Shown here piece after piece: positions 10,954 through 28,959 of a stretch of 64,000 bases of DNA (the stretch's first letter is position 1; each line of letters starts with the position of its first letter). The notes beneath the pieces were generated by a model. It was not told the DNA's origin, ran no database searches, and worked only from the letters and a program-made list of their open reading frames with translations. The stretch is from a virus: IMG/VR virus record IMGVR_UViG_3300013006_000023, positions 32,001-96,000 of that record. One strand, 5' to 3'. Made by a program: the position numbers and the translations under genes.

Positions 10954-12069
10954 ATGAATAAAGATCTCAAACAAGTATTTGCTTCTCTAGATAAGCTCAA
11001 CAGTGAAGCTTCCATGTTAAATGAAAATGCACTTAGTAAAGTGGATGAATGGTTTGATACAGGTTGCTATGCTCTCAACGCCATTCTAGGTGGCAGCTGC
11101 CGTAGTGGTGGTGTACCTAAAGGTAGAATCATAGGATTCTCAGGACCTAGCCAAACTGGCAAAACATTCATTGTTAACAAGATATTGGCCAGTGCACAAA
11201 AGAAAGGGTTAACCCCTGTTATTTTTGATACTGAAATAGCCATCGATGAAAACAGTACCAAAGGCGTCGGACTGGATGCTGAAAATACAAAATATGTTCC
11301 TGTGGATACTATTGATCAATGCAGAAATCAAATTGCTGCATTCCTGGATAGCGTCATTGAAAACAATGCAAAAGGTAAGTTTATTATCAGCATTGATAGC
11401 TTGGGTAACCTTGCTTCTCAGAAAGAACTGGATGATATTGTCAAAGACAAATCGGCTACAGATATGGGTCTTCGTGCCAAATCTCTCAAGAGTTTGTTTC
11501 GCACCCTCACATTCAAAGCTGCAAAAGCTGGTGTGACCATTTTGTTTACAAACCATACGTATGAAGATCCAGGCTCCATGTACCCGACACTGGTCAAGAG
11601 TCAAGCAGGCGGCTCTGGCCCTGTTTATATGTCCAGTATTTTGGTGCAATTAGCCAAGCGCAATGAAAAAGAAGGTGAAGGAGATTCAATGGATGCAGAC
11701 GATAAAAAGATTGCTGAAGCTAACAAATACTCAGGAACAACTCTTCGAGCTCTAACTGTAAAAAATCGATTCATTCCTCCATTCCTTGAAGCAGAGATGT
11801 ATCTTTCCTTCAAGACAGGTTTAAACAAATACAGTGGTCTACTTGCCATGGCAGCTGCACGTGGCATTGTTGAGCAAGCTGGCGCCACATATTCTGTGGG
11901 CATCACATCAGGCAAGTACAAGAAGGGTGATAAGCTTGGTTATGCCAAGACTTTTGCCAAAGATCCTTTATTTTACGAAGAATTTATTATACCTGAATTA
12001 GACAAACGTCTTGTATTAGATTACCAGTATAACTCTAATGAAGCGCAAGCAGAAGAGCCCATCCAGTAA
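10954..12069 (+). CDS. uvsX: UvsX RecA-like recombinase
   Basis: DTGCYALN, GPSQTGKT, FDTE, IDSLGNL, TNHTY, KNRFIPPF. Confidence 0.95.
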   Translation: MNKDLKQVFASLDKLNSEASMLNENALSKVDEWFDTGCYALNAILGGSCRSGGVPKGRIIGFSGPSQTGKTFIVNKILASAQKKGLTPVIFDTEIAIDENSTKGVGLDAENTKYVPVDTIDQCRNQIAAFLDSVIENNAKGKFIISIDSLGNLASQKELDDIVKDKSATDMGLRAKSLKSLFRTLTFKAAKAGVTILFTNHTYEDPGSMYPTLVKSQAGGSGPVYMSSILVQLAKRNEKEGEGDSMDADDKKIAEANKYSGTTLRALTVKNRFIPPFLEAEMYLSFKTGLNKYSGLLAMAAARGIVEQAGATYSVGITSGKYKKGDKLGYAKTFAKDPLFYEEFIIPELDKRLVLDYQYNSNEAQAEEPIQ

Positions 12070-12784
12070 AGTCGTAGTGCCCGTCAGTGGTGGCATGGAT
12101 AGCAGTGTTCTGTTGCATTTTGCTGCTAGCAAGTATGACAAAGTAATTGCAGTTAATTATGACTACGGTCAAAAACACCGTGATAAGGAACTCAATTGTG
12201 CATCATTTCAAATTGAATCGGTTGACACACCGATTGATAGTCTACATTTAAAATTACCGTTTTTTAAAGATATATGTCAAGTTTCTTCACTCCTTAATAA
12301 TAAAGTTGCTGTTGCCAAGGCTAAAGATGTAATGGGTGATCCACAGACTGTAAACTATGTTCCATACAGAAACTTAATGTTACTTAGCATTTCATTGGCC
12401 ATTGCAGAAAATTATCAGGCCAGCACTGTTTTTCATGGTGCGGCTCAAGCCGATAGTGTAGCGGGGTTTTGGGATGGCAGTGAAGAATTTTTGGAGCAAA
12501 TTAATAATGTATCGGCTTTGAATCGTAGAAATAAAATTACAGTTGCAGCACCATTGATTGACAAATCAAAGCAAGAAATCATAAAGCTCGGTATGAAGCT
12601 TGGTGTCGATTTTAGTCAGACTTGGACCTGTTACGAGGGTGAAGAGCAAGCCTGTGGTGAATGTACTGCATGCTCATTGCGCATCAAGGGCTTCATGGAT
12701 GCTGGGTACATAGACCCTGTTTCATATAAAATCTCATTACCCTGGAACAAATACAACTGCAAACCTATCAGTCGCTGTAACTAA
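12038..12784 (+). CDS. queC: QueC-family PP-loop ATP pyrophosphatase (7-cyano-7-deazaguanine synthase-like, divergent)
   Basis: SGGMDS, YGQKH, YVPYRN, TWTCY...CGECTACSLR zinc site; canonical GYPDC replaced by GFWDG. Confidence 0.88.
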   Translation: MKRKQKSPSSKVVVPVSGGMDSSVLLHFAASKYDKVIAVNYDYGQKHRDKELNCASFQIESVDTPIDSLHLKLPFFKDICQVSSLLNNKVAVAKAKDVMGDPQTVNYVPYRNLMLLSISLAIAENYQASTVFHGAAQADSVAGFWDGSEEFLEQINNVSALNRRNKITVAAPLIDKSKQEIIKLGMKLGVDFSQTWTCYEGEEQACGECTACSLRIKGFMDAGYIDPVSYKISLPWNKYNCKPISRCN

Positions 12785-13676
12785 AATTACCCCTATCAAC
12801 TGGCGCCTGTCTTAATCCAAACTCTTGCTTGGCTGCTGTATATACATCATCGCCCTCTGGATATTCATCTACTGTTGGAGCTTCACCTGTACCCTCCCCT
12901 TCGCTTTGTTTGGTTTCACTTGCCGGCATGTAGCTATTCTTATATTTCAATGAATCAATGAAGTCTCTTATAAATTCTTTATCTTTGGACTTGGTTACAT
13001 CATAAGCACGTGTTGTAGCTTCAATAACCTCATTCTCAAGTTCAGGTGATTCATAAATATCTCCTTTGTCAATCTTGATTTCATCAGGCAGTTCAACAAA
13101 AATTGGCATAAATTCTCTAATAAACTTTGTTGCCATATTCTTAACATAAGTGTTGGATGTTGCAACTGCATCCAAAGGCGAACCTGCTGGATGTTCTGTG
13201 CCAGTAATCGGCTTATTAATCATTCCTGCATCAACAGCTTGTTTTACTTTTACCATTGTTGTGTTAACACCGCCTTCCACATCAACCCTTACAACATTTA
13301 ACAAATTATCGATCACCCGCGCTGTATATTTTGCATCTGTGCCACCCAACTTTAACTCTGTTTTGATTAAATTTTCTAAATCTGCGCGAAACTTCATCTT
13401 GCTACCAGGATAGAAAAGCTGATACTCTTTACCATCAATAATGTTTGAACCGGGCTTAAAGAGCTTTGATTTGATGGCAGTCAACAAGCTATTGGCAATG
13501 TCGGTCTTTGTCTTGCCTTCTCTGGCTGCAGCTTTGCCGACACCATAACCACCACCTGGTGTTTTCTCAATGTCACCGGTGTATCCCATATCACCCATGC
13601 CATAGATCGGAGCTTCAGAAAGCACTTTCTTTCTTTTCAAATATGCTTCAAATATAAGACTGCAATCACTATTCAT
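12768..13676 (-). CDS. Hypothetical late protein, probable internal head protein
   Basis: 302 aa; TAAATA 7 nt upstream; N-terminus LIFEAY...VLSEA; overlaps the queC 3' end. Confidence 0.75.
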   Translation of the reverse strand: MNSDCSLIFEAYLKRKKVLSEAPIYGMGDMGYTGDIEKTPGGGYGVGKAAAREGKTKTDIANSLLTAIKSKLFKPGSNIIDGKEYQLFYPGSKMKFRADLENLIKTELKLGGTDAKYTARVIDNLLNVVRVDVEGGVNTTMVKVKQAVDAGMINKPITGTEHPAGSPLDAVATSNTYVKNMATKFIREFMPIFVELPDEIKIDKGDIYESPELENEVIEATTRAYDVTKSKDKEFIRDFIDSLKYKNSYMPASETKQSEGEGTGEAPTVDEYPEGDDVYTAAKQEFGLRQAPVDRGNFSYSD

Positions 13677-13677
13677 C

Positions 13678-13705
13678 TTGAATTATTTAATCTTATACAT
13701 ATAAT
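13678..13705 (+). promoter_or_regulatory. Sigma70-like promoter for the amidotransferase; its spacer contains a minus-strand late TAAATA (13684-13689)
   Basis: TTGAAT-N16-TATAAT. Confidence 0.6.
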
Positions 13706-13707
13706 AA

Positions 13708-13716
13708 TAAGGAGGT
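13708..13716 (+). promoter_or_regulatory. Strong Shine-Dalgarno TAAGGAGGT
   Basis: 9-nt perfect anti-SD match, 9 nt before ATT 13726. Confidence 0.75.
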
Positions 13717-13725
13717 ATAAAATAT

Positions 13726-14406
13726 ATTTGTGGAATATTTGGAGCCAAAGAGTTTACAGAATACGTTAAACTCTATAATTTGAACAAGAACAGGGGCACC
13801 TTTTCTTATGGTGGGCTATTGATTGATAACAAGATGCATGCCATTATTAAGAGCGCTGGAAAAATGCAGCTTAGTAAGAAGCTTGATATTGAATATGGAA
13901 AGACAAGAAAACCCATAAATACTTTCAAATATTACCTTGGCCACACACAAGCACCAACATCCTCAGAGAGAAACTACACACCTAGGACGTCACATCCTTT
14001 CTCTTTCAAAGATTGGCATGTAGCTCACAACGGTGTGCTCACCAATTACAAGCAGCTTCGTGAACTACTACCCAAGAAATCCTATAATGCAGTTGATACA
14101 TCCGTTATACCGCCTCTTCTTGACCAAGCATACAAACAAACAAAAGACGAGATTACTGCTATCCGTCATGTGCTAGGCTCACTACAAGGCACATTTGGCC
14201 TATGGATTTATAATCATAAGACACACCACATATACATAGCGCGATCTGGTAGCACCATATATGCAGATTTCCTTACAAATAGTTTTTCTTCAATAAAACA
14301 AGATAATTTTCATGAACTTGAAGAGGGATTAATTTATCTCATAACACCAGAAGGTATAACATCTGTGGGTAAATTCATACCAAATTCACCTTTCTTCACT
14401 AAATGA
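13726..14406 (+). CDS. Class II (Ntn) glutamine amidotransferase with ATT start (ORF track truncates it at 13780)
   Basis: ATT TGT GGA ATA TTT GGA = (M)CGIFG; then NKNRG, LGHTQAPT, SHPF, AHNGVLTN, LQGTFG, YIARS. Confidence 0.85.
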   Translation: MCGIFGAKEFTEYVKLYNLNKNRGTFSYGGLLIDNKMHAIIKSAGKMQLSKKLDIEYGKTRKPINTFKYYLGHTQAPTSSERNYTPRTSHPFSFKDWHVAHNGVLTNYKQLRELLPKKSYNAVDTSVIPPLLDQAYKQTKDEITAIRHVLGSLQGTFGLWIYNHKTHHIYIARSGSTIYADFLTNSFSSIKQDNFHELEEGLIYLITPEGITSVGKFIPNSPFFTK

Positions 14407-15077
14407 AAACTGCTTTTTATTTCTGTACCCGAAATACGCATGCTAAATCAACACTGGCATTCAAATCTTTATTGCAAATAAATCAAAAATTAAATTTTGA
14501 TATATTTTACAAATCAAACAACAAGGATGGCTTGTCAGTTAATTATAATTCCTTTCTTAAAGAAAAATCTGCTCAATATGATAACATTGTCTTCATGCAT
14601 GATGATGTGTATGTAGACGATTTCAATATAATAGATAAACTTAAAAAAGCGCACGACAGTTTTGACATTGTTGGATTAGCAGGTGGGATAAACATGAAAA
14701 TACAGAATCCTGCACTGTGGCATCTCATGTGCGGCGGCTTTCAAAGCAACAACCTACGAGGTGCAGTTGCTCATTTTGTTTCTGAAAACATTATTAATAT
14801 GACAAGCTTTGGCATAACACCATCACGAGTTGCTGTATTGGACGGCTTGTTCTTAAGCGTCAATTGCAAGGCAATAAATACCGCAGAATTTACTTTTAAT
14901 GAAAATTACACCTTTCATCATTATGACATTTCAAGCTGTATAGATGCCAATCAAAAGAAATTAAAATTGGGTGTGTATCCCATATGGGTTATTCACAAAT
15001 CACCGGGGCTTTTAGACCCTAATAGTGCTCTGTATCTAGACAGCGAGCGCAAATTTCTCCAAGAATACCTTGATTGA
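14403..15077 (+). CDS. GT2-like (GT-A) glycosyltransferase
   Basis: VFMHDDVYV, IVGLAG, VAVLDGLFL, FHHYDISSC, VIHKSPG; ATGA-coupled to the amidotransferase. Confidence 0.8.
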   Translation: MKTAFYFCTRNTHAKSTLAFKSLLQINQKLNFDIFYKSNNKDGLSVNYNSFLKEKSAQYDNIVFMHDDVYVDDFNIIDKLKKAHDSFDIVGLAGGINMKIQNPALWHLMCGGFQSNNLRGAVAHFVSENIINMTSFGITPSRVAVLDGLFLSVNCKAINTAEFTFNENYTFHHYDISSCIDANQKKLKLGVYPIWVIHKSPGLLDPNSALYLDSERKFLQEYLD

Positions 15078-15101
15078 AAATTCGTTTATTGATATTATAA
15101 T
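15074..15101 (+). promoter_or_regulatory. Sigma70-like early promoter for helicase
   Basis: TTGAAA-N16-TATAAT, 6 nt before ATG 15108. Confidence 0.65.
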
Positions 15102-15107
15102 ACAGTT

Positions 15108-16430
15108 ATGGCTCAGTTAGATTTAGACTTTTTTGAGACTATCATAGCATACAAATGTCTTACAGATGAAATATATCTGGCTTCTGTTATTGACCATCTA
15201 AATCCTATCTTCTTTAAGAACAAAGACACCAAAGCTATTTTTGAGCTAATAAAAGGGTTTTATACCAAAAATAGTGCTTGCCCCACTATAACTGAAATAA
15301 AGGCCTACCTGACAACTGACGAGTTAAAGACGTCTTTAAAAAATGTGGTATCACTATTCACCGGCATAGACAAAAATTTTAATAACGATGAGCTAACTAC
15401 AAATACAGAGAAATTTTTGAAAGAAAAAGCCGTCTACCATACAATGATGAGTGTAGTGGATGACATATCTAAAAACGATGTTGATACATCAAAAATATTA
15501 GAAAAATTCGATAAAGCTTGTAATATTACACTCACTACTCAAATAGGTTTAGATTTATTCACCGACATTGATATGGTAATAAATGACCTCAACTCCACAG
15601 AGAAATACATTCCCTCCAAATGGAAATGGCTTGATGATAAGATCGGTGGCGGGTTTCTAGAGAATGGCAGGTCGCTCTATCTTTTTGCTGGCGAGACCAA
15701 CATCGGCAAGTCTATATTCTTAGGCAATGTAGCAGTCAACATTGCACAACAGGGCAAAACAGTTCTTCTTGTGTCTCTTGAAATGCCTGAACTCATATAT
15801 GCAAAAAGATTATGCAGCAGTGTTTCAAAAATACCGCTAGGTCAGCTCAAGGCTGAATGTGTAACACTCAAGAATCAAATTAGTGAATATTGTCTCGAAA
15901 ACCCGCAATCAAAAATTCTTATCAAAGAGTTTCCGCCAGCAACCATAACTGCACATCAACTCAAATCGTTTATTCAAAAAATAATTCAAAAAGGTATTAA
16001 CATTGATGCCATAGTACTAGATTATGTCAATCTTCTTAAACCAGCTTTTGGTGATTCAAGCTATGAGCGTATTAAGAACTGTACAGAACATCTTCGTGCT
16101 CTGTCATATCATTTTAATTGTCCAGTCATCTCTGCAACACAACTCAATAGAGAAGGGTATGAAATTACTGATCCTGGTCTCAAGACAATATCTGAAAGTA
16201 TAGGCTTAGCCATGACAGGTGATGTTATTCTGAGTATTTGGCAAGAAGATACAGATAAAGAATTAGGCGTTATCAAAATGGGCTTCATGAAAAACCGGTT
16301 CGGTCCAAACTTCGGACATTGTTCTATGAGAATTGATTACTCGACCTTAACAATTACAGAAGATGAGCATGCTAATGATACTGAGGGCAGTTCTAGTACA
16401 ATTTCTACTCTTTCCAAGCTATCGTTATAA
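15108..16430 (+). CDS. gp41: gp41 DnaB-like replicative helicase
   Basis: AGETNIGKS, SLEM, IKEFP, LDYVNLL, SATQLNR, ISESIG, MKNRFG. Confidence 0.95.
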   Translation: MAQLDLDFFETIIAYKCLTDEIYLASVIDHLNPIFFKNKDTKAIFELIKGFYTKNSACPTITEIKAYLTTDELKTSLKNVVSLFTGIDKNFNNDELTTNTEKFLKEKAVYHTMMSVVDDISKNDVDTSKILEKFDKACNITLTTQIGLDLFTDIDMVINDLNSTEKYIPSKWKWLDDKIGGGFLENGRSLYLFAGETNIGKSIFLGNVAVNIAQQGKTVLLVSLEMPELIYAKRLCSSVSKIPLGQLKAECVTLKNQISEYCLENPQSKILIKEFPPATITAHQLKSFIQKIIQKGINIDAIVLDYVNLLKPAFGDSSYERIKNCTEHLRALSYHFNCPVISATQLNREGYEITDPGLKTISESIGLAMTGDVILSIWQEDTDKELGVIKMGFMKNRFGPNFGHCSMRIDYSTLTITEDEHANDTEGSSSTISTLSKLSL

Positions 16431-21962: not shown

Positions 21963-23006
21963 GTGGTTATACCTCAAGAATATATTGTTCAGAAATTCTA
22001 TCAGTATGCAGGTTACCCTAAGTTCAAGAAATTTAGCAACACATACATGGCCGGGTGTCCAATATGCAGAGAAGGAAAATCATGGAACAAAAAACGTAGA
22101 TGCATTTATTTGGTAGATGATAATAAAATTTGCTGTCATAATTGTGGTTGGTATGGTGATACTGTCAAGTGGGTGCAAGAAGTCTCCGGACTTACTTTTG
22201 TGGAAATTATAAATGAATCGAAAAATTATGAGATTTTGCCTCTGGAAGCATTAGCGGACGACCAGAGAAGCGACATTCAAAAACCCATCAAAGTTGAAAG
22301 ACTGCCACTTGAATCAATTGATTTATTTGACAAGATGCAGATTAATTACTATAACAACAATAGGACAGTTAATGATGCACTGCTCTTGTTAGAGAAGAGA
22401 AGAATGATTAACGCTATCAATAGACCCAAATCTTTGTTTCTATCATTGAATGATAAAGTTCATAAGAACAGAATCATAATACCTTTCTATAACGAGGAAA
22501 ATGAGGTCATCTTCTATCAATCAAGAATCATCTATGATAAAGATCTGAGGCTGTATCCCAAATACTTGAGCAAAATAAATGGTGAAAAATCTCTGTACAA
22601 CATTAACAACATAAATGCAGATTTAGAATATATCTTTGTTTTTGAAGGCCCTATTGATGCATTTTTTGTGCGCAATGGCACAGCAATTTCAGGTATTCAA
22701 GAGAATAGCCACACCATGTTTTCTGCATTACAGGAGAATCAGCTGAATTCATTTAAATTTCACAAACGCATTTGGGTGCTGGATAGTCAATATAATGATA
22801 GGGCCAGCAGAAACAAGACTGAGAAGCTCATACAAAATGGTGAAACTGTATTCATATGGCCTGAAAATGACGGCAAAAAATACAAGGATATTAATGATCT
22901 GGTAATAGATAAAAAAATAGATTCAGTGGATCCAAGTTATTTTGTTGAAAATTCCCACAGCGGAATCAAGGCAAAATTATTATTATCTGTCATTAGCAGA
23001 AATTAA
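21963..23006 (+). CDS. gp61: gp61 DNA primase
   Basis: CPICREG...CHNCG zinc finger, RIIIPFY, PKYLS, FEGPIDA TOPRIM, KDIND. Confidence 0.93.
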   Translation: MVIPQEYIVQKFYQYAGYPKFKKFSNTYMAGCPICREGKSWNKKRRCIYLVDDNKICCHNCGWYGDTVKWVQEVSGLTFVEIINESKNYEILPLEALADDQRSDIQKPIKVERLPLESIDLFDKMQINYYNNNRTVNDALLLLEKRRMINAINRPKSLFLSLNDKVHKNRIIIPFYNEENEVIFYQSRIIYDKDLRLYPKYLSKINGEKSLYNINNINADLEYIFVFEGPIDAFFVRNGTAISGIQENSHTMFSALQENQLNSFKFHKRIWVLDSQYNDRASRNKTEKLIQNGETVFIWPENDGKKYKDINDLVIDKKIDSVDPSYFVENSHSGIKAKLLLSVISRN

Positions 23007-23390
23007 GTACCCCTTCATTGATTCACTCAATGAGCTTAATTCTGCGGCCAGCCTGGCAATCTTCTTTTTCTCACTTCTGGCCATGTCCTCAAATATTGAA
23101 TCACAAGGAGCAGCATGCAGCTGCACTTGAATAGAATCAGAATCTGTGCCATTTAAAAATTTAATAAACACATCAATTTGCTCAATCCATCCTCTTAATG
23201 ACTGCAATTGATGTTGCTTGTTTTGATCAACAACTGTCTCTCTGCCTTTAATATCATAGTCTTCAGGTGCTGTGGTTTTTAGAGTTTGCGCCATGGCATT
23301 TCTATCATTTTGTGGAGCTGCTACTGCAGTATCATCCATGTTCTCATCCGCTTCAAGCACTGTATCAAACACCTTATTAAAGAGACTCAT
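22983..23390 (-). CDS. Hypothetical late protein, probable internal head protein
   Basis: TAAATA (23396-23401, -) 5 nt upstream; MSLFNKVFDTVLEAD. Confidence 0.75.
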   Translation of the reverse strand: MSLFNKVFDTVLEADENMDDTAVAAPQNDRNAMAQTLKTTAPEDYDIKGRETVVDQNKQHQLQSLRGWIEQIDVFIKFLNGTDSDSIQVQLHAAPCDSIFEDMARSEKKKIARLAAELSSLSESMKGYLISANDR

Positions 23391-23424
23391 AATATTATTT
23401 ATTCCAAAAAGATTAAATAATTAT

Positions 23425-25211: not shown

Positions 25212-25924
25212 ACATCAGAGTAATTGGTTTGGCTGTAGTCAAACACGCTCTTGGATGCTTCATTGACACTGTAGTTGTAAGGCTTGACTGCACCTGATGC
25301 ATAAGGGCTTTTTGTGTCGTCAAAAACCTGATCATTAACCACTTCACCGCCACTGAGCCCAGGCTCAAATGAATATTCAAACCTCTTGGCTTTAACCAAC
25401 CACACATAGTGTCCCATGAGAGGGTTTATTTGTGCAATATCTTGATCTAGTCGTTGTGTGATTTCATATATGTTGCCTTGTCTGCCACCAGGCCTATCAT
25501 TGCCATATTCAACAAGCTTGAACAGATCACCAGACTTGGGCTCCTGGTTATAACCAAATGCAGTGTAAAATGCGCTTATGTGAATGAATGCGGTGAGCTC
25601 ATCATCTGATACCAATCCAAACTTGCTCAACATTAATGCATTTTCTTGCAAGTTTATTGCCACAGTAATCAATCTTGGTGTAGAATATTGTTGTATTGGA
25701 TCTTCGCCATATAAATTATCTGCAGATAAAACGTTGTAATTGTGTGTATAATACTCGACCTTCTGACCGTACAGATTAATCTGTTCCCTCCAATAATTAG
25801 AAACCGTCATTCGTTCAGCTGAATTGTTATCTTTATCTGTGTATCTAAAACAGTCGTTATCCTTGAAGGCAAAAGGCTGTATGTTTATAGTGTTACTACC
25901 TGTATACTTGTCCTTAGTATTCAT
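25190..25924 (-). CDS. gp14: Neck protein gp14-like
   Basis: EQINLYGQKVEYY...DNLYGEDPIQQY...SKFGLVSDDELT...EPKSGDL...KRFEYS. Confidence 0.8.
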   Translation of the reverse strand: MNTKDKYTGSNTINIQPFAFKDNDCFRYTDKDNNSAERMTVSNYWREQINLYGQKVEYYTHNYNVLSADNLYGEDPIQQYSTPRLITVAINLQENALMLSKFGLVSDDELTAFIHISAFYTAFGYNQEPKSGDLFKLVEYGNDRPGGRQGNIYEITQRLDQDIAQINPLMGHYVWLVKAKRFEYSFEPGLSGGEVVNDQVFDDTKSPYASGAVKPYNYSVNEASKSVFDYSQTNYSDVYGGYGG

Positions 25925-26935: not shown

Positions 26936-27232
26936 AAAATTATTTATTGTTTTAACTTCAGTTTTTTCATAATTTTGTGAGAATTTTTCTGGTTGATAGA
27001 AATTTTCTTTTTTACTTGCTACCTTTGTATCAATTAAATTGTCTCTAAACCCGTCAGCATTCTCTGGACCAGTGTTCTTAACAAAAGCATTCTTGTCAGC
27101 TTCTGCCTCCGAGGGCTCTTTCTTATCCACCATCTTGAAAGTGCCCTTGGGTGGAAACATTGACTTCTTTTCTTCTATAATCTTATTTTCATAGAAGTTA
27201 CCCATTTCTATTAGTGTTCTTGTCTGGTTCAT
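26315..27232 (-). CDS. Acidic low-complexity late protein, candidate prohead core/scaffold or internal protein
   Basis: 305 aa, E/D-rich; TAAATA (27239-27244, -) 6 nt upstream; own terminator. Confidence 0.7.
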   Translation of the reverse strand: MNQTRTLIEMGNFYENKIIEEKKSMFPPKGTFKMVDKKEPSEAEADKNAFVKNTGPENADGFRDNLIDTKVASKKENFYQPEKFSQNYEKTEVKTINNFMSKSIFDKLYEDVMSDQAQDTEAVDAAALGLPSVDSGNDSGEEGEVSFTLPRDIAHKLCDALKAVLDTEEEAGDEEGMGGEEGDASEDEQFAPSEDAEAKAKMKKDEHKEDEDNEGVAKEATELKELPASAGQGLQKKDNKVGDVTKSLTSSGAGDAKVTDKVGNDGEKGHALVGAGVKGANAFTGKSNKVDSKTSKVGSYLAGLK

Positions 27233-27252
27233 ATTAAGTATTTAATGTATCT

Positions 27253-28959
27253 ATGCCAAAAAAACCAGATTCCAAGTTTTATTTAGGTAATCAAAATCTA
27301 CCTACGTCTGAAACAGTATTTGATTATGAAGCACACCCTGAATGGGTGGAAGACATAGCCAAATCAAGAAAGAACATACTTTTCTTTGCAGAAAACTTTT
27401 TCTTCATTACCAACCTGGACGAGGGAAAGATGAAGATCAAGCTTCACAGCTATCAAAGGCGAATCTTGAGAAGTCTAAGGGATAATAGATTTGTTTGTCT
27501 GTTGGCATCAAGACAAGTAGGAAAAACAACTCTCATGACCATATATGCTTTGTGGATTGCCTGCTTTTTTGAAGATCAACGTATTTTAGTGGTCGCCAAC
27601 AAAGAGCAAACTGCAATTAACATTTTTAAGAGGATACGGTTAGCTTATGAAAAACTACCTAACTACCTCAAACCAGGCACTGTAGAATATGGGAAAACAT
27701 CCATGTCACTGGGCAATGGCAGTAGCATAGGCATTTCCACAACCAGCAGTGATGCAGGCAGAGGTGACAGTTGCAACGTTCTTATTTTGGACGAGCTAGC
27801 GTTTATTGACAATCATCTTGTGGAACAATTCTGGAGCTCAGTCTATCCAATTATCTCATCATCTAAGAAGTCCAAAATATTTGTTGCTTCAACACCAAAT
27901 GGTACAGGCAATCTCTTTCATGAATTATATACAGGAGCAATAGAACGTAAAAATGACTGGCATGCAGAAAAAGTCGATTGGTGGGAATTTCCGGGAAGAG
28001 ATGAAGCATGGAAAGAAAATACAATACGCACCTTAGGTAGCAGGGATGTATTTGATCAAGAGTTTGGAAATGTTTTCTTACAAACTGGTGAAAGTGCTCT
28101 GGACGAAAAACTTTTTGAAGAAATGAAAAGTGAATGCACTGAACCAAAATTTGTTTTTGAAGATGGAAAATATCAATTATGGGATGAACCTAACAAAGAA
28201 AAAATTTATGTCGTTGGCGTGGACATAAGTGAAGGTGTGGGTGAAGCTGCAAGTGTCATACAAATCTTGGACATTACTAACTTAAGACAGATTGAACAGG
28301 TAGCTGTGTATCACAATCGAACTATAAGCCCTTATAACTTCACAACAAAATTATTTGAAATCCTACAACATTGGGGCTCACCGCTTGCCATGATTGAAAG
28401 AAACAATTGTGGCGCACAAGTAGTTGATCAACTTAAAAATACGCACCTATATGAGAATATTGTTTCATATGGTCCCAAGATTGGTGGCACTAGTTTTAAT
28501 AAACCAGGTGTACTGGCTCATACTAATTCAAAGTATAAAGGTGTAATGAACATGAGGTATTGGATTAATGAATTAAAATCTGTAAAAATTAAAGATGTAA
28601 AAACACTAAAAGAATTAAAAGCTTTTATTCGGTATCCTAATGGTACGTGGAGTGCTAAACCTGGAATGGATAATTGGGATGATCGTGTAATGAGCTTAAT
28701 ATGGGCATTAATGATCTTAGAAAATGATTTGGTTGAAAAATTTTTTGATGTTAGTGAATTTGATTCAAATAAAAAACCACTAACAATTAAATCGCTTGAC
28801 TACGGAATAAAATATTTTATTAATCCAACTTCAATATACAGTAATGAAAAGGATGCATCCATGGGCTCCACAACACCTATTGTGTTTTCACAAGCTGATC
28901 AAGAAGAGCTTGAAGGCTTAAAAGAATTGGAGTCACAGGGGTGGTCTAGATTAAGTTAA
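27253..28959 (+). CDS. gp17: Terminase large subunit gp17
   Basis: LHSYQ, ASRQVGKT, LILDELAF, ASTPNG, FDQEF, GVDISEG, ERNN, WDDRVMSL. Confidence 0.96.
   Translation: MPKKPDSKFYLGNQNLPTSETVFDYEAHPEWVEDIAKSRKNILFFAENFFFITNLDEGKMKIKLHSYQRRILRSLRDNRFVCLLASRQVGKTTLMTIYALWIACFFEDQRILVVANKEQTAINIFKRIRLAYEKLPNYLKPGTVEYGKTSMSLGNGSSIGISTTSSDAGRGDSCNVLILDELAFIDNHLVEQFWSSVYPIISSSKKSKIFVASTPNGTGNLFHELYTGAIERKNDWHAEKVDWWEFPGRDEAWKENTIRTLGSRDVFDQEFGNVFLQTGESALDEKLFEEMKSECTEPKFVFEDGKYQLWDEPNKEKIYVVGVDISEGVGEAASVIQILDITNLRQIEQVAVYHNRTISPYNFTTKLFEILQHWGSPLAMIERNNCGAQVVDQLKNTHLYENIVSYGPKIGGTSFNKPGVLAHTNSKYKGVMNMRYWINELKSVKIKDVKTLKELKAFIRYPNGTWSAKPGMDNWDDRVMSLIWALMILENDLVEKFFDVSEFDSNKKPLTIKSLDYGIKYFINPTSIYSNEKDASMGSTTPIVFSQADQEELEGLKELESQGWSRLS

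What the first reader, a model, noticed from the sequence alone, without database searches (positions are those of the whole stretch)
12038..15077. Split QueC + Ntn amidotransferase + GT2 module inside the replisome: candidate new DNA modification pathway
Seen: queC overlaps uvsX, and amidotransferase-GT2 are ATGA-coupled and abut gp41. Both enzymes have altered substrate motifs: QueC GFWDG instead of GYPDC (12464), and amidotransferase GHTQAPT instead of GHxR, losing the glutamine-carboxylate-binding Arg (13939). No folE, queD, queE or dpdA is visible in 64 kb. Known: Gat-QueC fusions make archaeosine-type deazaguanines in archaea and phages, and QueC + Ntn pairs in QatABCD modify proteins. 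Inference: the trio amidates or amidinates and then glycosylates a base, or modifies a protein; I know no described pathway with this combination.
Basis: partly seen in the sequence, partly recalled or inferred. Interest (0 to 1): 0.8.

Follow-up and report, generated by a model that had tools for sequence, protein, structure and literature searches.

The report
Deazaguanine DNA genes, helper glutaminase, glycosyltransferase
An uncultured lake relative of phage T4 carries one step (QueC plus a small glutamine-splitting helper) of an already known system that replaces guanine in phage DNA with a 7-deazaguanine. The sugar-transferring enzyme next to it survives in a relative that lacks the whole system, so it is probably not part of it.

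Summary
All sequence observations hold: queC overlaps uvsX, GAT and GT are ATGA-coupled, and GFWDG and GHTQAPT sit at the stated coordinates. Two corrections apply. An antisense late gene separates queC from GAT. GAT starts at an ATT codon, which supplies the catalytic Cys.

The "missing" pathway is not missing. folE, queD, a probable queE and queF lie on the same contig outside the window. dpdA3 occurs in all five larger relatives. dpdN was found in both relatives checked for it. In a collinear relative both genes lie 3-4 kb beyond where this contig ends. This is the known DpdA3/DpdN (fdPreQ1) type of system of Flavobacterium phage immuto_2-6A.

The Ntn amidotransferase is a conserved QueC partner. 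It lies beside queC wherever this could be read among 51 cultured Vibrio and Pseudomonas phage records. It is most likely QueC's glutaminase subunit, and no paper I read names it. Its Arg-to-Gln change is lineage-specific.

The GT moves with queC and GAT in a second gene order. However, a related phage contig lacking the whole deazaguanine set, GAT included, keeps the GT under purifying selection. Bacterial assemblies also carry 42-45% identical homologues among housekeeping genes. The GT is probably independent.

The scan noted this module before in at least 13 genomes, with similar verdicts.

The parts
10954..12069 (+). uvsX (RecA-like recombinase), the upstream flank. Its last 32 nt overlap queC.
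   Evidence: Pfam RecA 6e-25; ORF coordinates.
12038..12784 (+). queC, 7-cyano-7-deazaguanine (preQ0) synthase of the sub-family with [FY]WD[GCTA] in place of YPDC.
   Evidence: PF06508 6e-55 and TIGR00364 above cut-off. SGGMDS, YGQKH, VPYRN and Cx7CxxCxxC are present, and FWDG replaces YPDC. The motif is conserved in 63 relatives.
12768..13676 (-). 302-aa antisense ORF of unknown function, probably a late gene. It interrupts the module and is not part of it.
   Evidence: No family in Pfam, PHROGs or NCBIfam. Conserved in close relatives, divergent or undetected in more distant ones. TAAATA lies 7 nt before its ATG (read).
13678..13715 (+). Sigma-70-like promoter (TTGAAT-16-TATAAT, 13678-13705) and AGGAGG (13710-13715) ahead of GAT.
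   Evidence: Consensus scan (the number of sites in the region is not above chance). Sequence.
13726..14406 (+). Stand-alone class II (Ntn) amidotransferase, 226 aa, with an ATT start and Cys at position 2. Proposed glutaminase partner of QueC.
   Evidence: GATase_6/7 above cut-off. N-terminus. AF2 pLDDT 92, and best PDB match the GlmS glutaminase domain at TM 0.71-0.74. Homologues abut queC in Vibrio phages and pf16.
14403..15077 (+). GT-A fold glycosyltransferase-like protein (PF13712), ATGA-coupled to GAT. Target unknown.
   Evidence: PF13712 4e-12. Invariant HDD and FHHYD motifs. AF2 pTM 0.83, best PDB match majastridin 2qgi with UDP at TMq 0.71.
15108..16430 (+). gp41-like replicative helicase, the downstream flank, with its own promoter-like site at 15074-15101.
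   Evidence: DnaB_C 2e-25; promoter scan.

Best explanation
The window holds the QueC step of a known kind of phage system that replaces guanine in DNA by a 7-deazaguanine. The other genes lie outside the window: FolE, QueD, probable QueE and QueF on the same contig, and DpdA3 and DpdN just beyond the contig end by inference. The expected route is GTP to CDG (FolE, QueD, QueE), CDG to preQ0 (QueC), preQ0 to preQ1 (QueF), base exchange into DNA (DpdA3) and formylation (DpdN). That route would give fdPreQ1 as in Flavobacterium phage immuto_2-6A. The stand-alone Ntn amidotransferase is inferred to be QueC's glutaminase subunit. Cys1 would split glutamine, and the ammonia would go to the CDG-adenylate made by the PP-loop enzyme QueC. 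This is the logic of asparagine synthetase B and of the fused Gat-QueC, here as two polypeptides. The glycosyltransferase is a real GT-A enzyme expressed with GAT from an early promoter, but it is most likely an independent function that happens to sit before gp41. Shown here: gene identities, synteny, presence and absence across genomes, and folds. Inferred: the glutaminase role, the final base, and GT independence.
For: Pathway genes are on the contig: queD and folE, a queE-like radical SAM protein and queF at 46% identity to immuto QueF. DpdA3 was found in 5 of 5 large relatives at E 1e-53 to 1e-61. In G002 (QueF 94% identical, collinear) DpdN and DpdA3 lie 3.1-4.4 kb past QueF, that is, past this contig's first base. 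FolE's best cultured hit is immuto_2-6A at 56%, and the gene set matches its annotated cluster (PMC10516641). For the GAT-QueC partnership: of 51 'phages' records with the nt-1 homologue, 46 list it overlapping or abutting an annotated QueC gene. Adjacency was read directly from the annotation for pf16 and 2.275.O. Three records lack usable annotation. These include phages with measured dPreQ0 or dPreQ1. All partnered QueCs share [FY]WD in place of YPD. GAT is missing together with the whole pathway in G011:C2. Cys1, Asn-Gly and Asp are conserved and the fold is that of the GlmS glutaminase. For GT independence: G011:C2 has uvsX, an antisense ORF, GT and gp41 with no queC, GAT, folE, queD, queE, queF, dpdN or dpdA3 in 118.7 kb, including the collinear intervals. 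The GT in that lineage has dN/dS about 0.05. Homologues at 42-45% identity sit among housekeeping genes in assemblies labelled Chthoniobacteraceae and Dojkabacteria.
Against: DpdA3 and DpdN were not seen on this contig itself; the record is estimated 51% complete. The QueE assignment rests on sub-threshold matches. No biochemical evidence exists for a QueC-GAT complex, and bacterial QueC is known to use free ammonia (my own knowledge). In this phage the Arg that binds the glutamine carboxylate is Gln. The GT stays glued to GAT in 152 of 155 evaluable viral loci. In a second architecture the three genes sit as a tightly coupled queC-GT-GAT operon elsewhere in a complete 195.9-kb genome, which argues for some functional tie. 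The GT-only lineage rests on two contigs.
Confidence: 0.6

Rival explanations
1. The three genes form one machine that makes a sugar-bearing 7-deazaguanine. In one version the GT glycosylates the inserted base or its free precursor. In another, GAT plus GT make a glycosylamine (PurF-like logic), which the altered QueC ligates to the CDG carboxylate, as Cap9 and QatC ligate CDG to protein amines.
For: GT is adjacent to GAT in 80 of 80 loci and 72 of 75 evaluable loci. It is ATGA-coupled. A second, permuted and tightly coupled order queC-GT-GAT lies away from uvsX and gp41 in about 12 loci, including a complete genome. The QueC substrate-side motif YPDC is altered, and PMC13329287 places this motif at the pocket opening. 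No thymidylate-synthase-family hydroxymethylase exists to supply another glycosyl acceptor in the DNA.
Against: A related phage contig keeps the GT under purifying selection without any deazaguanine gene. Close cellular homologues lie in unrelated contexts. Vibrio and pf16 phages have the same QueC variant and GAT without a GT, and they carry plain dPreQ0 or dPreQ1. QueF and DpdN in this clade need preQ0 and preQ1, not a glycosyl-amide. The uvsX-gp41 block is collinear as a whole, so adjacency there may be simple inheritance.
Confidence: 0.2
2. GAT plus QueC work like the fused Gat-QueC of phage 9g and convert preQ0 to the amidine G+ (archaeosine base), so the DNA carries dG+.
For: The two domains are the same as in Gat-QueC. 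The GAT loop GH-x-[QR]-AP-T resembles the 9g Gat loop. The G006-type phages lack QueF and DpdN, so their end product is at the preQ0 level.
Against: This contig has QueF, and its close relatives have DpdN, which point to preQ1 derivatives. Vibrio phages with the same pair contain dPreQ1 or mdPreQ1, and dG+ in nt-1 was traced to ArcS. PHROG matches to the Gat-QueC family are much weaker than those to plain QueC.
Confidence: 0.08
3. QueC is a protein-modifying enzyme like Cap9 or QatC (deazaguanylation of a protein N-terminus), with the Ntn protein or the GT as partner or target.
For: PDB sequence search finds Cap9 as the third hit. The YPDC motif is altered.
Against: QueC scores above the equivalog cut-off for preQ0 synthase. 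It keeps SGGxDS, YxQxH, VPxRN and the zinc motif, whereas QatC has lost these. It co-occurs with FolE, QueD, QueE, QueF and DpdA3. No QatA, QatB, QatD or CD-NTase partner was seen next to it.
Confidence: 0.02
4. The preQ0 or preQ1 made is for host tRNA queuosine, not for DNA.
For: No DpdA is visible on this contig.
Against: DpdA3 is present in every larger relative and is expected just off the contig end. The genes are embedded in the replication module.
Confidence: 0.03

Closest known systems
[quoted passage not shown] 2023, PMC10516641)
   Same: FolE (56% identical), QueD, QueE, QueC and QueF (46%) are on this contig. DpdA3 (44-47%) and DpdN (about 45%) are in relatives.
   Different: The immuto phage has no GAT or GT homologue. 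Its QueC is a different branch: 31% identity over half the length, YPDC kept, zinc cysteines lost. Here the genes are scattered over more than 45 kb, and queC sits in the replisome block.
Gat-QueC of Enterobacteria phage 9g and archaea (dG+ / archaeosine)
   Same: A class II amidotransferase module working with a QueC module, with Cys1 and a similar loop after the Arg/Gln position.
   Different: Here there are two genes, separated by an antisense gene. Arg is replaced by Gln. QueC has FWDG rather than YPDN. The associated transglycosylase is DpdA3, not DpdA1, and QueF and DpdN point to preQ1 derivatives.
QueC plus unnamed 'hypothetical protein' or 'nucleophile aminohydrolase' of KVP40-like Vibrio phages (nt-1 ORF392, VH7D), Vibrio phage 2.275.O and Pseudomonas phage pf16
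   Same: The same pair. The Ntn protein starts MCG[IL]F and has H-x-QAPT. QueC has YWD. The genes abut or overlap, inside deazaguanine clusters.
   Different: Those phages use the DpdA2 type and have no GT. Identity to the window's GAT is only 25-30%. The protein (YP_008125324) is not listed in the held supplements of Hutinet 2019.
Asparagine synthetase B (Ntn glutaminase plus PP-loop synthetase); mechanistic analogue, from my own knowledge
   Same: A carboxylate is adenylated by a PP-loop enzyme and amidated with ammonia from an Ntn glutaminase.
   Different: AsnB is one polypeptide and acts on aspartate. Here the enzyme would have two subunits and act on CDG. The QueC-family Asn_synthase match is marginal.
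Majastridin (PDB 2qgi / 2nxv), a GT-A protein of the Rhodobacter blasticus ATPase operon
   Same: Best structural match of the GT (TMq 0.71, UDP complex).
   Different: 14% identity. Majastridin's own function is unknown, so it gives no acceptor.

Membership tests
Canonical QueC (preQ0 synthase, PF06508 cluster 1 of PMC13329287) | SGGxDS ATP loop | tested here: met
   SGGMDS at residue 17.
Canonical QueC (preQ0 synthase, PF06508 cluster 1 of PMC13329287) | YxQxHxxE and VPxRN motifs | tested here: met
   YGQKH (Glu one residue further on than in the motif) and VPYRN.
Canonical QueC (preQ0 synthase, PF06508 cluster 1 of PMC13329287) | YPDC substrate-side motif | tested here: not met
   FWDG here and [FY][WY]DG in the relatives examined. 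The aromatic residue is kept; E. coli Y131F retains partial activity.
Canonical QueC (preQ0 synthase, PF06508 cluster 1 of PMC13329287) | C(x)8CxxCxxC zinc motif with the Tyr after the first Cys | tested here: met
   CY-x6-CGECTAC; the spacer is one residue shorter.
Canonical QueC (preQ0 synthase, PF06508 cluster 1 of PMC13329287) | Curated equivalog score and linkage with queD and queE | tested here: met
   TIGR00364 scores 157.6 against a 150.3 cut-off. queD and a queE-like gene are on the same contig.
Class II (Ntn) glutamine amidotransferase | Cys directly after the initiator | tested here: met
   ATT-TGT at 13726 and MCGIFG in homologues.
Class II (Ntn) glutamine amidotransferase | Asn-Gly oxyanion pair and the Asp that binds the alpha-amino group | tested here: met
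   Invariant HNG and VD[ST]S aligned to GlmS N98, G99 and D123.
Class II (Ntn) glutamine amidotransferase | Arg that binds the glutamine alpha-carboxylate (GlmS R73) | tested here: not met
   Gln in this phage and in all uvsX-gp41 type relatives. Arg is kept (GHLRAP) in 11 loci of the queC-GT-GAT type.
Class II (Ntn) glutamine amidotransferase | Ntn four-layer fold | tested here: met
   AF2 pLDDT 92. Foldseek matches 1xff and 1jxa (GlmS glutaminase domain) at TM 0.71-0.74, E 2e-12.
Gat-QueC fusion (G+ synthase) | Gat and QueC in one polypeptide | tested here: not met
   Separate genes 940 nt apart with an antisense ORF between them.
DpdA3/DpdN fdPreQ1 system | [quoted passage not shown] | tested here: met
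   QueE is supported only by sub-threshold family matches.
DpdA3/DpdN fdPreQ1 system | DpdA3 transglycosylase and DpdN formyltransferase encoded | tested here: inconclusive
   Absent from the 107.6-kb fragment. DpdA3 is in 5 of 5 larger relatives. DpdN is in G001 and G002. In collinear G002 both lie just beyond the point where this contig ends.
DpdA3/DpdN fdPreQ1 system | fdPreQ1 replaces dG in virion DNA | not testable with these tools
   Needs nucleoside mass spectrometry.
GT-A glycosyltransferase (PF13712 Glyco_tranf_2_5) | Family score, acidic DxD-type motif and GT-A fold | tested here: met
   46.7 bits against a cut-off of 27. Invariant HDD. TMq 0.71 to 2qgi.
GT-A glycosyltransferase (PF13712 Glyco_tranf_2_5) | Sugar donor and acceptor | not testable with these tools
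   No characterised close relative was found.
QatC / Cap9 protein deazaguanylation | QatC-type remodelled active site, or a CD-NTase or QatB partner | tested here: not met
   The canonical motifs that QatC has lost are kept here. The neighbours are uvsX, a late ORF, GAT, GT and gp41. A genome-wide search for a CD-NTase was not done.

The most novel reading that the evidence does not exclude
The glycosyltransferase is after all part of the pathway in these aquatic T4-like phages. Together with the glutaminase and the altered QueC it would yield a sugar-bearing 7-deazaguanine in DNA (or a glycosyl-amide of CDG). That would be a base not yet described.
Probability: 0.18. Interest if true: 0.8.

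Novelty: new variant of a known kind. Interest (0 to 1): 0.45.

Why it matters
Two points would matter to people who study phage DNA modification. First, a small Ntn amidotransferase is a fixed companion of QueC in at least four lineages of large phages. These include well-studied ones (KVP40, nt-1, VH7D, pf16) whose DNA modifications have been measured. Yet it is annotated as hypothetical and is absent from the pathway tables I could read. If it is a glutaminase subunit, phage preQ0 synthesis draws nitrogen from glutamine rather than free ammonia, and this is testable with two purified proteins. Second, the work sets a limit on the tempting 'glycosylated deazaguanine' idea. A natural relative without the pathway keeps the glycosyltransferase, so the idea needs direct chemical evidence before it is believed.

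Tried and rejected
(1) Pfam TGT (PF01702) found nothing on the contig or in five large relatives. This turned out to be a false negative, because the immuto DpdA3 protein as query found a homologue in all five. The nt-1 DpdA2 query also found nothing.
(2) blastn of the region against cultured phages gave no match. The GT protein against cultured phages also gave no match.
(3) I tested whether the GT is a T4-style hydroxymethyl-pyrimidine glycosyltransferase and rejected this. No thymidylate-synthase-family gene occurs in G000, G001, G002 or the complete G006.
(4) Domain fusions of GT relatives were examined for a functional hint. They showed only TPR repeats and one RluA/S4 fusion, which is not informative for this case.
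A2 was used instead and returned five loci.
(7) A literature search for DUF366 returned only DUF3669 papers. The review PMC10966956 is not held.
(8) The ESM Atlas look-up for the GT returned only its own viral PF13712 clusters.
(9) I considered protein deazaguanylation (Cap9/QatC) and a tRNA-queuosine role and rejected both; the reasons are under rival explanations.

Full report
**What is in the window.** The ORF list and family scans give the following on the plus strand:
- gp43 DNA polymerase
- a 123-aa ORF
- uvsX (10954-12069)
- queC (12038-12784)
- an Ntn amidotransferase (GAT)
- a PF13712 glycosyltransferase-like gene (GT, 14403-15077)
- the gp41 helicase (15108-16430)

A 302-aa ORF with no family match lies on the minus strand between queC and GAT (12768-13676). 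The uvsX/queC overlap is 32 nt. ATGA lies at 14403-14406. GFWDG is at nt 12464 and GHTQAPT at nt 13939.

The GAT gene model needs correction. The frame is open upstream of the TTG chosen by the ORF caller. An ATT at 13726, 10 nt after AGGAGG, is followed by Cys-Gly-Ile-Phe-Gly. Full-length homologues begin MCGIFG. Among 78 close relatives, 43 have ATT and 35 have ATG at this position, each followed by Cys.

**Where the window comes from.** It is bases 32001-96000 of a 107,651-bp IMG/VR contig, estimated 51% complete. Its gp41 is only about 28% identical to that of any cultured phage. This is therefore a deep, uncultured branch of T4-like phages. The window averages roughly 35% G+C.

**The pathway is not missing.** Searches of the whole contig found the following:
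- queD (25395-25784) and folE (27226-27765)
- a radical-SAM protein with sub-threshold QueE matches (22615-23400)

FolE's best cultured match is the same phage, at 56%. Its annotated cluster holds QueC, QueD, QueE, FolE, DpdA3, DpdN and QueF. Its DNA carries fdPreQ1 in place of dG (PMC10516641).

The Pfam TGT model found no DpdA on the contig or in five large relatives. That was a false negative. With the immuto DpdA3 protein as query, all five relatives (129-193 kb) gave a hit at E 1e-53 to 1e-61.

In relative G002, QueF is 94% identical to the one here, and the first 14 kb of my contig are collinear with it. There DpdN and DpdA3 lie 3.1 and 3.7-4.4 kb beyond QueF. In my contig QueF starts 131 bases from the end. 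The two genes are therefore expected just off the assembled fragment. DpdN was also found in G001. It was not searched for in G003-G005.

**The amidotransferase is a partner of QueC.** The family is large: 473 proteins at 90% clustering and 331 viral loci. In 80 of 80 retrieved loci the order is uvsX-queC-(variable insert)-GAT-GT-gp41 wherever the locus reaches that far.

Independent support comes from cultured phages. The protein downstream of queC in Vibrio phage nt-1 (ORF392) and the 'nucleophile aminohydrolase' of Vibrio phage 2.275.O are homologues. They start MCG[IL]F and carry H-V-QAPT.

tblastn with the nt-1 protein finds 51 phage records. In 46 of them the match is listed as overlapping or abutting an annotated QueC gene. 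Adjacency was read directly from the annotation for pf16 and 2.275.O. Three records lack usable annotation.

These phages include nt-1, VH7D, phi-Grn1, phi-ST2 and 6E35.1a. Their DNA has measured dPreQ0, dPreQ1 or mdPreQ1. The pair is therefore compatible with ordinary preQ0 production.

The nt-1 protein is not in the pathway tables held for Hutinet 2019. None of the papers I read names it.

All four QueC lineages that have the partner share [FY]WD[GCTA] where canonical QueC has YPDC. The unpartnered QueCs of the immuto phage and CP21 keep [YF]PDC, and the fused 9g Gat-QueC keeps YPDN. A 2026 study places YPDC at the opening of the substrate pocket and shows that Tyr-to-Phe is tolerated.

The AF2 model of GAT is confident (pLDDT 92). 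Its best matches are the GlmS glutaminase domain and PurF.

**The Arg-to-Gln change.** In this phage and in all relatives with the uvsX-gp41 arrangement, the residue aligned with GlmS Arg73 is Gln. In a sister group with a different gene order the same loop reads GHLRAP, with Arg. The family thus descends from an ordinary Arg-bearing glutaminase, and the change is lineage-specific. It may alter affinity. It is weak ground for proposing a different substrate.

**The glycosyltransferase: evidence for a link.** The GT follows GAT in all 80 loci of the first set. It is adjacent to GAT in 72 of 75 evaluable loci of a second, more distant set; five further loci are cut off.

In about 12 loci the order is queC-GT-GAT, tightly coupled and far from uvsX and gp41. 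One of these belongs to a complete 195,888-bp genome with terminal repeats (G006). It has FolE, QueD, QueE and DpdA3 (directly after gp43) but no QueF or DpdN. The three genes therefore occur as a unit in two places and two orders.

**The glycosyltransferase: evidence against a link.** A 118.7-kb T4-like contig binned into a bacterial MAG (G011:C2) has gp43-uvsX-(antisense ORF)-GT-gp41. Its GT is 48% identical to the window's, and no queC or GAT is present.

The contig is collinear with mine across the intervals where mine has FolE, QueD, QueE and QueF, and where relatives have DpdN and DpdA3. It lacks every one of them.

A second contig of that lineage (87% identical GT) shows the same local picture. 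Between the two, the GT has pN 0.07 against pS 0.65, giving dN/dS of about 0.05. The GT is thus maintained by selection in phages without the pathway, whereas GAT disappears with it.

In addition, 42-45% identical homologues lie among housekeeping genes (NadA, Ile-tRNA synthetase, a DEAD-box helicase) in assemblies labelled Chthoniobacteraceae and Dojkabacteria. The Vibrio and pf16 phages with the QueC-GAT pair have no GT.

The fold is GT-A. The best match is majastridin with UDP, at TMq 0.71, which gives no acceptor. No thymidylate-synthase-family hydroxymethylase exists in these genomes, so a T4-style hydroxymethyl-base glycosylation is excluded.

**Reading.**
- I put about 0.85 on queC being the preQ0 step of a DpdA3-type DNA modification system.
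- I put about 0.65 on GAT being its glutaminase subunit, with AsnB-like logic as in the fused Gat-QueC.
- I put about 0.3 on any functional tie of the GT to the pathway, of which about 0.18 is for a sugar-bearing base.

The antisense ORF is probably an unrelated late gene. TAAATA lies 7 nt before its start, in line with earlier notes on this genome.

**Relation to earlier notes of this scan.** The same module had been noted in at least 13 genomes in all. Follow-ups there named the immuto fdPreQ1 system as closest known and left the GT unexplained. I used that as a lead and tested it here. One note reported that the GT link holds in rearranged relatives. I confirmed a second architecture but also found the GT-only lineage, which points the other way.

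Noticed in passing
window 13726-13728: The amidotransferase uses an ATT start codon behind a strong AGGAGG. ATT is kept in 43 of 78 close relatives and ATG in the other 35, always followed by the catalytic Cys.
   Followed up: yes
outside the window: contig G000 13214-13789 (-); L150:9631-10230 in G006: A DUF366 (PF04017) gene tracks the deazaguanine genes. It is present in G000, G001 and G002. In G006 it sits in the same operon as queC-GT-GAT. It is missing from the collinear position in the pathway-less contig G011:C2. Among cultured phages only Microcystis phage MaAM05 has a homologue.
   Followed up: partly
outside the window: L004:9375-10331 (-) and L004:8615-9400 (-): An NAD-dependent sugar epimerase/dehydratase gene overlaps the start of the QueE-like gene by 26 nt. 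It is conserved in relatives but sits at other positions, so the link to QueE is not conserved.
   Followed up: partly
window 12768-13676 (-): A 302-aa orphan on the opposite strand is wedged between queC and GAT, with TAAATA 7 nt before its ATG (late-promoter-like). It is conserved in close relatives and replaced or absent in more distant ones. G011:C2 has a different 179-aa antisense ORF at the same spot.
   Followed up: partly
L150:9177-9638 (G006): In the queC-GT-GAT architecture the next gene is a pyrimidine-dimer DNA glycosylase (Pyr_excise) homologue. In the same genome DpdA3 lies directly after the gp43 polymerase gene.
   Followed up: no
L093:100-981 (Flavobacterium phage immuto_2-6A QueC): This annotated QueC keeps YPDC but lacks the C-terminal zinc cysteines in my alignment, although the phage fully replaces dG.
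   Followed up: no
proteins P0260, P0342, P0279, P0364: Distant relatives of the GT occur fused to TPR repeats. One is fused to an S4 plus RluA-type pseudouridine synthase module.
   Followed up: no
L091 (Campylobacter phage CP21): In this dADG-type phage group the QueC-like gene lies just before the gp43 fragments and folE just before gp41. This is a parallel case of deazaguanine genes embedded in the replisome block.
   Followed up: no
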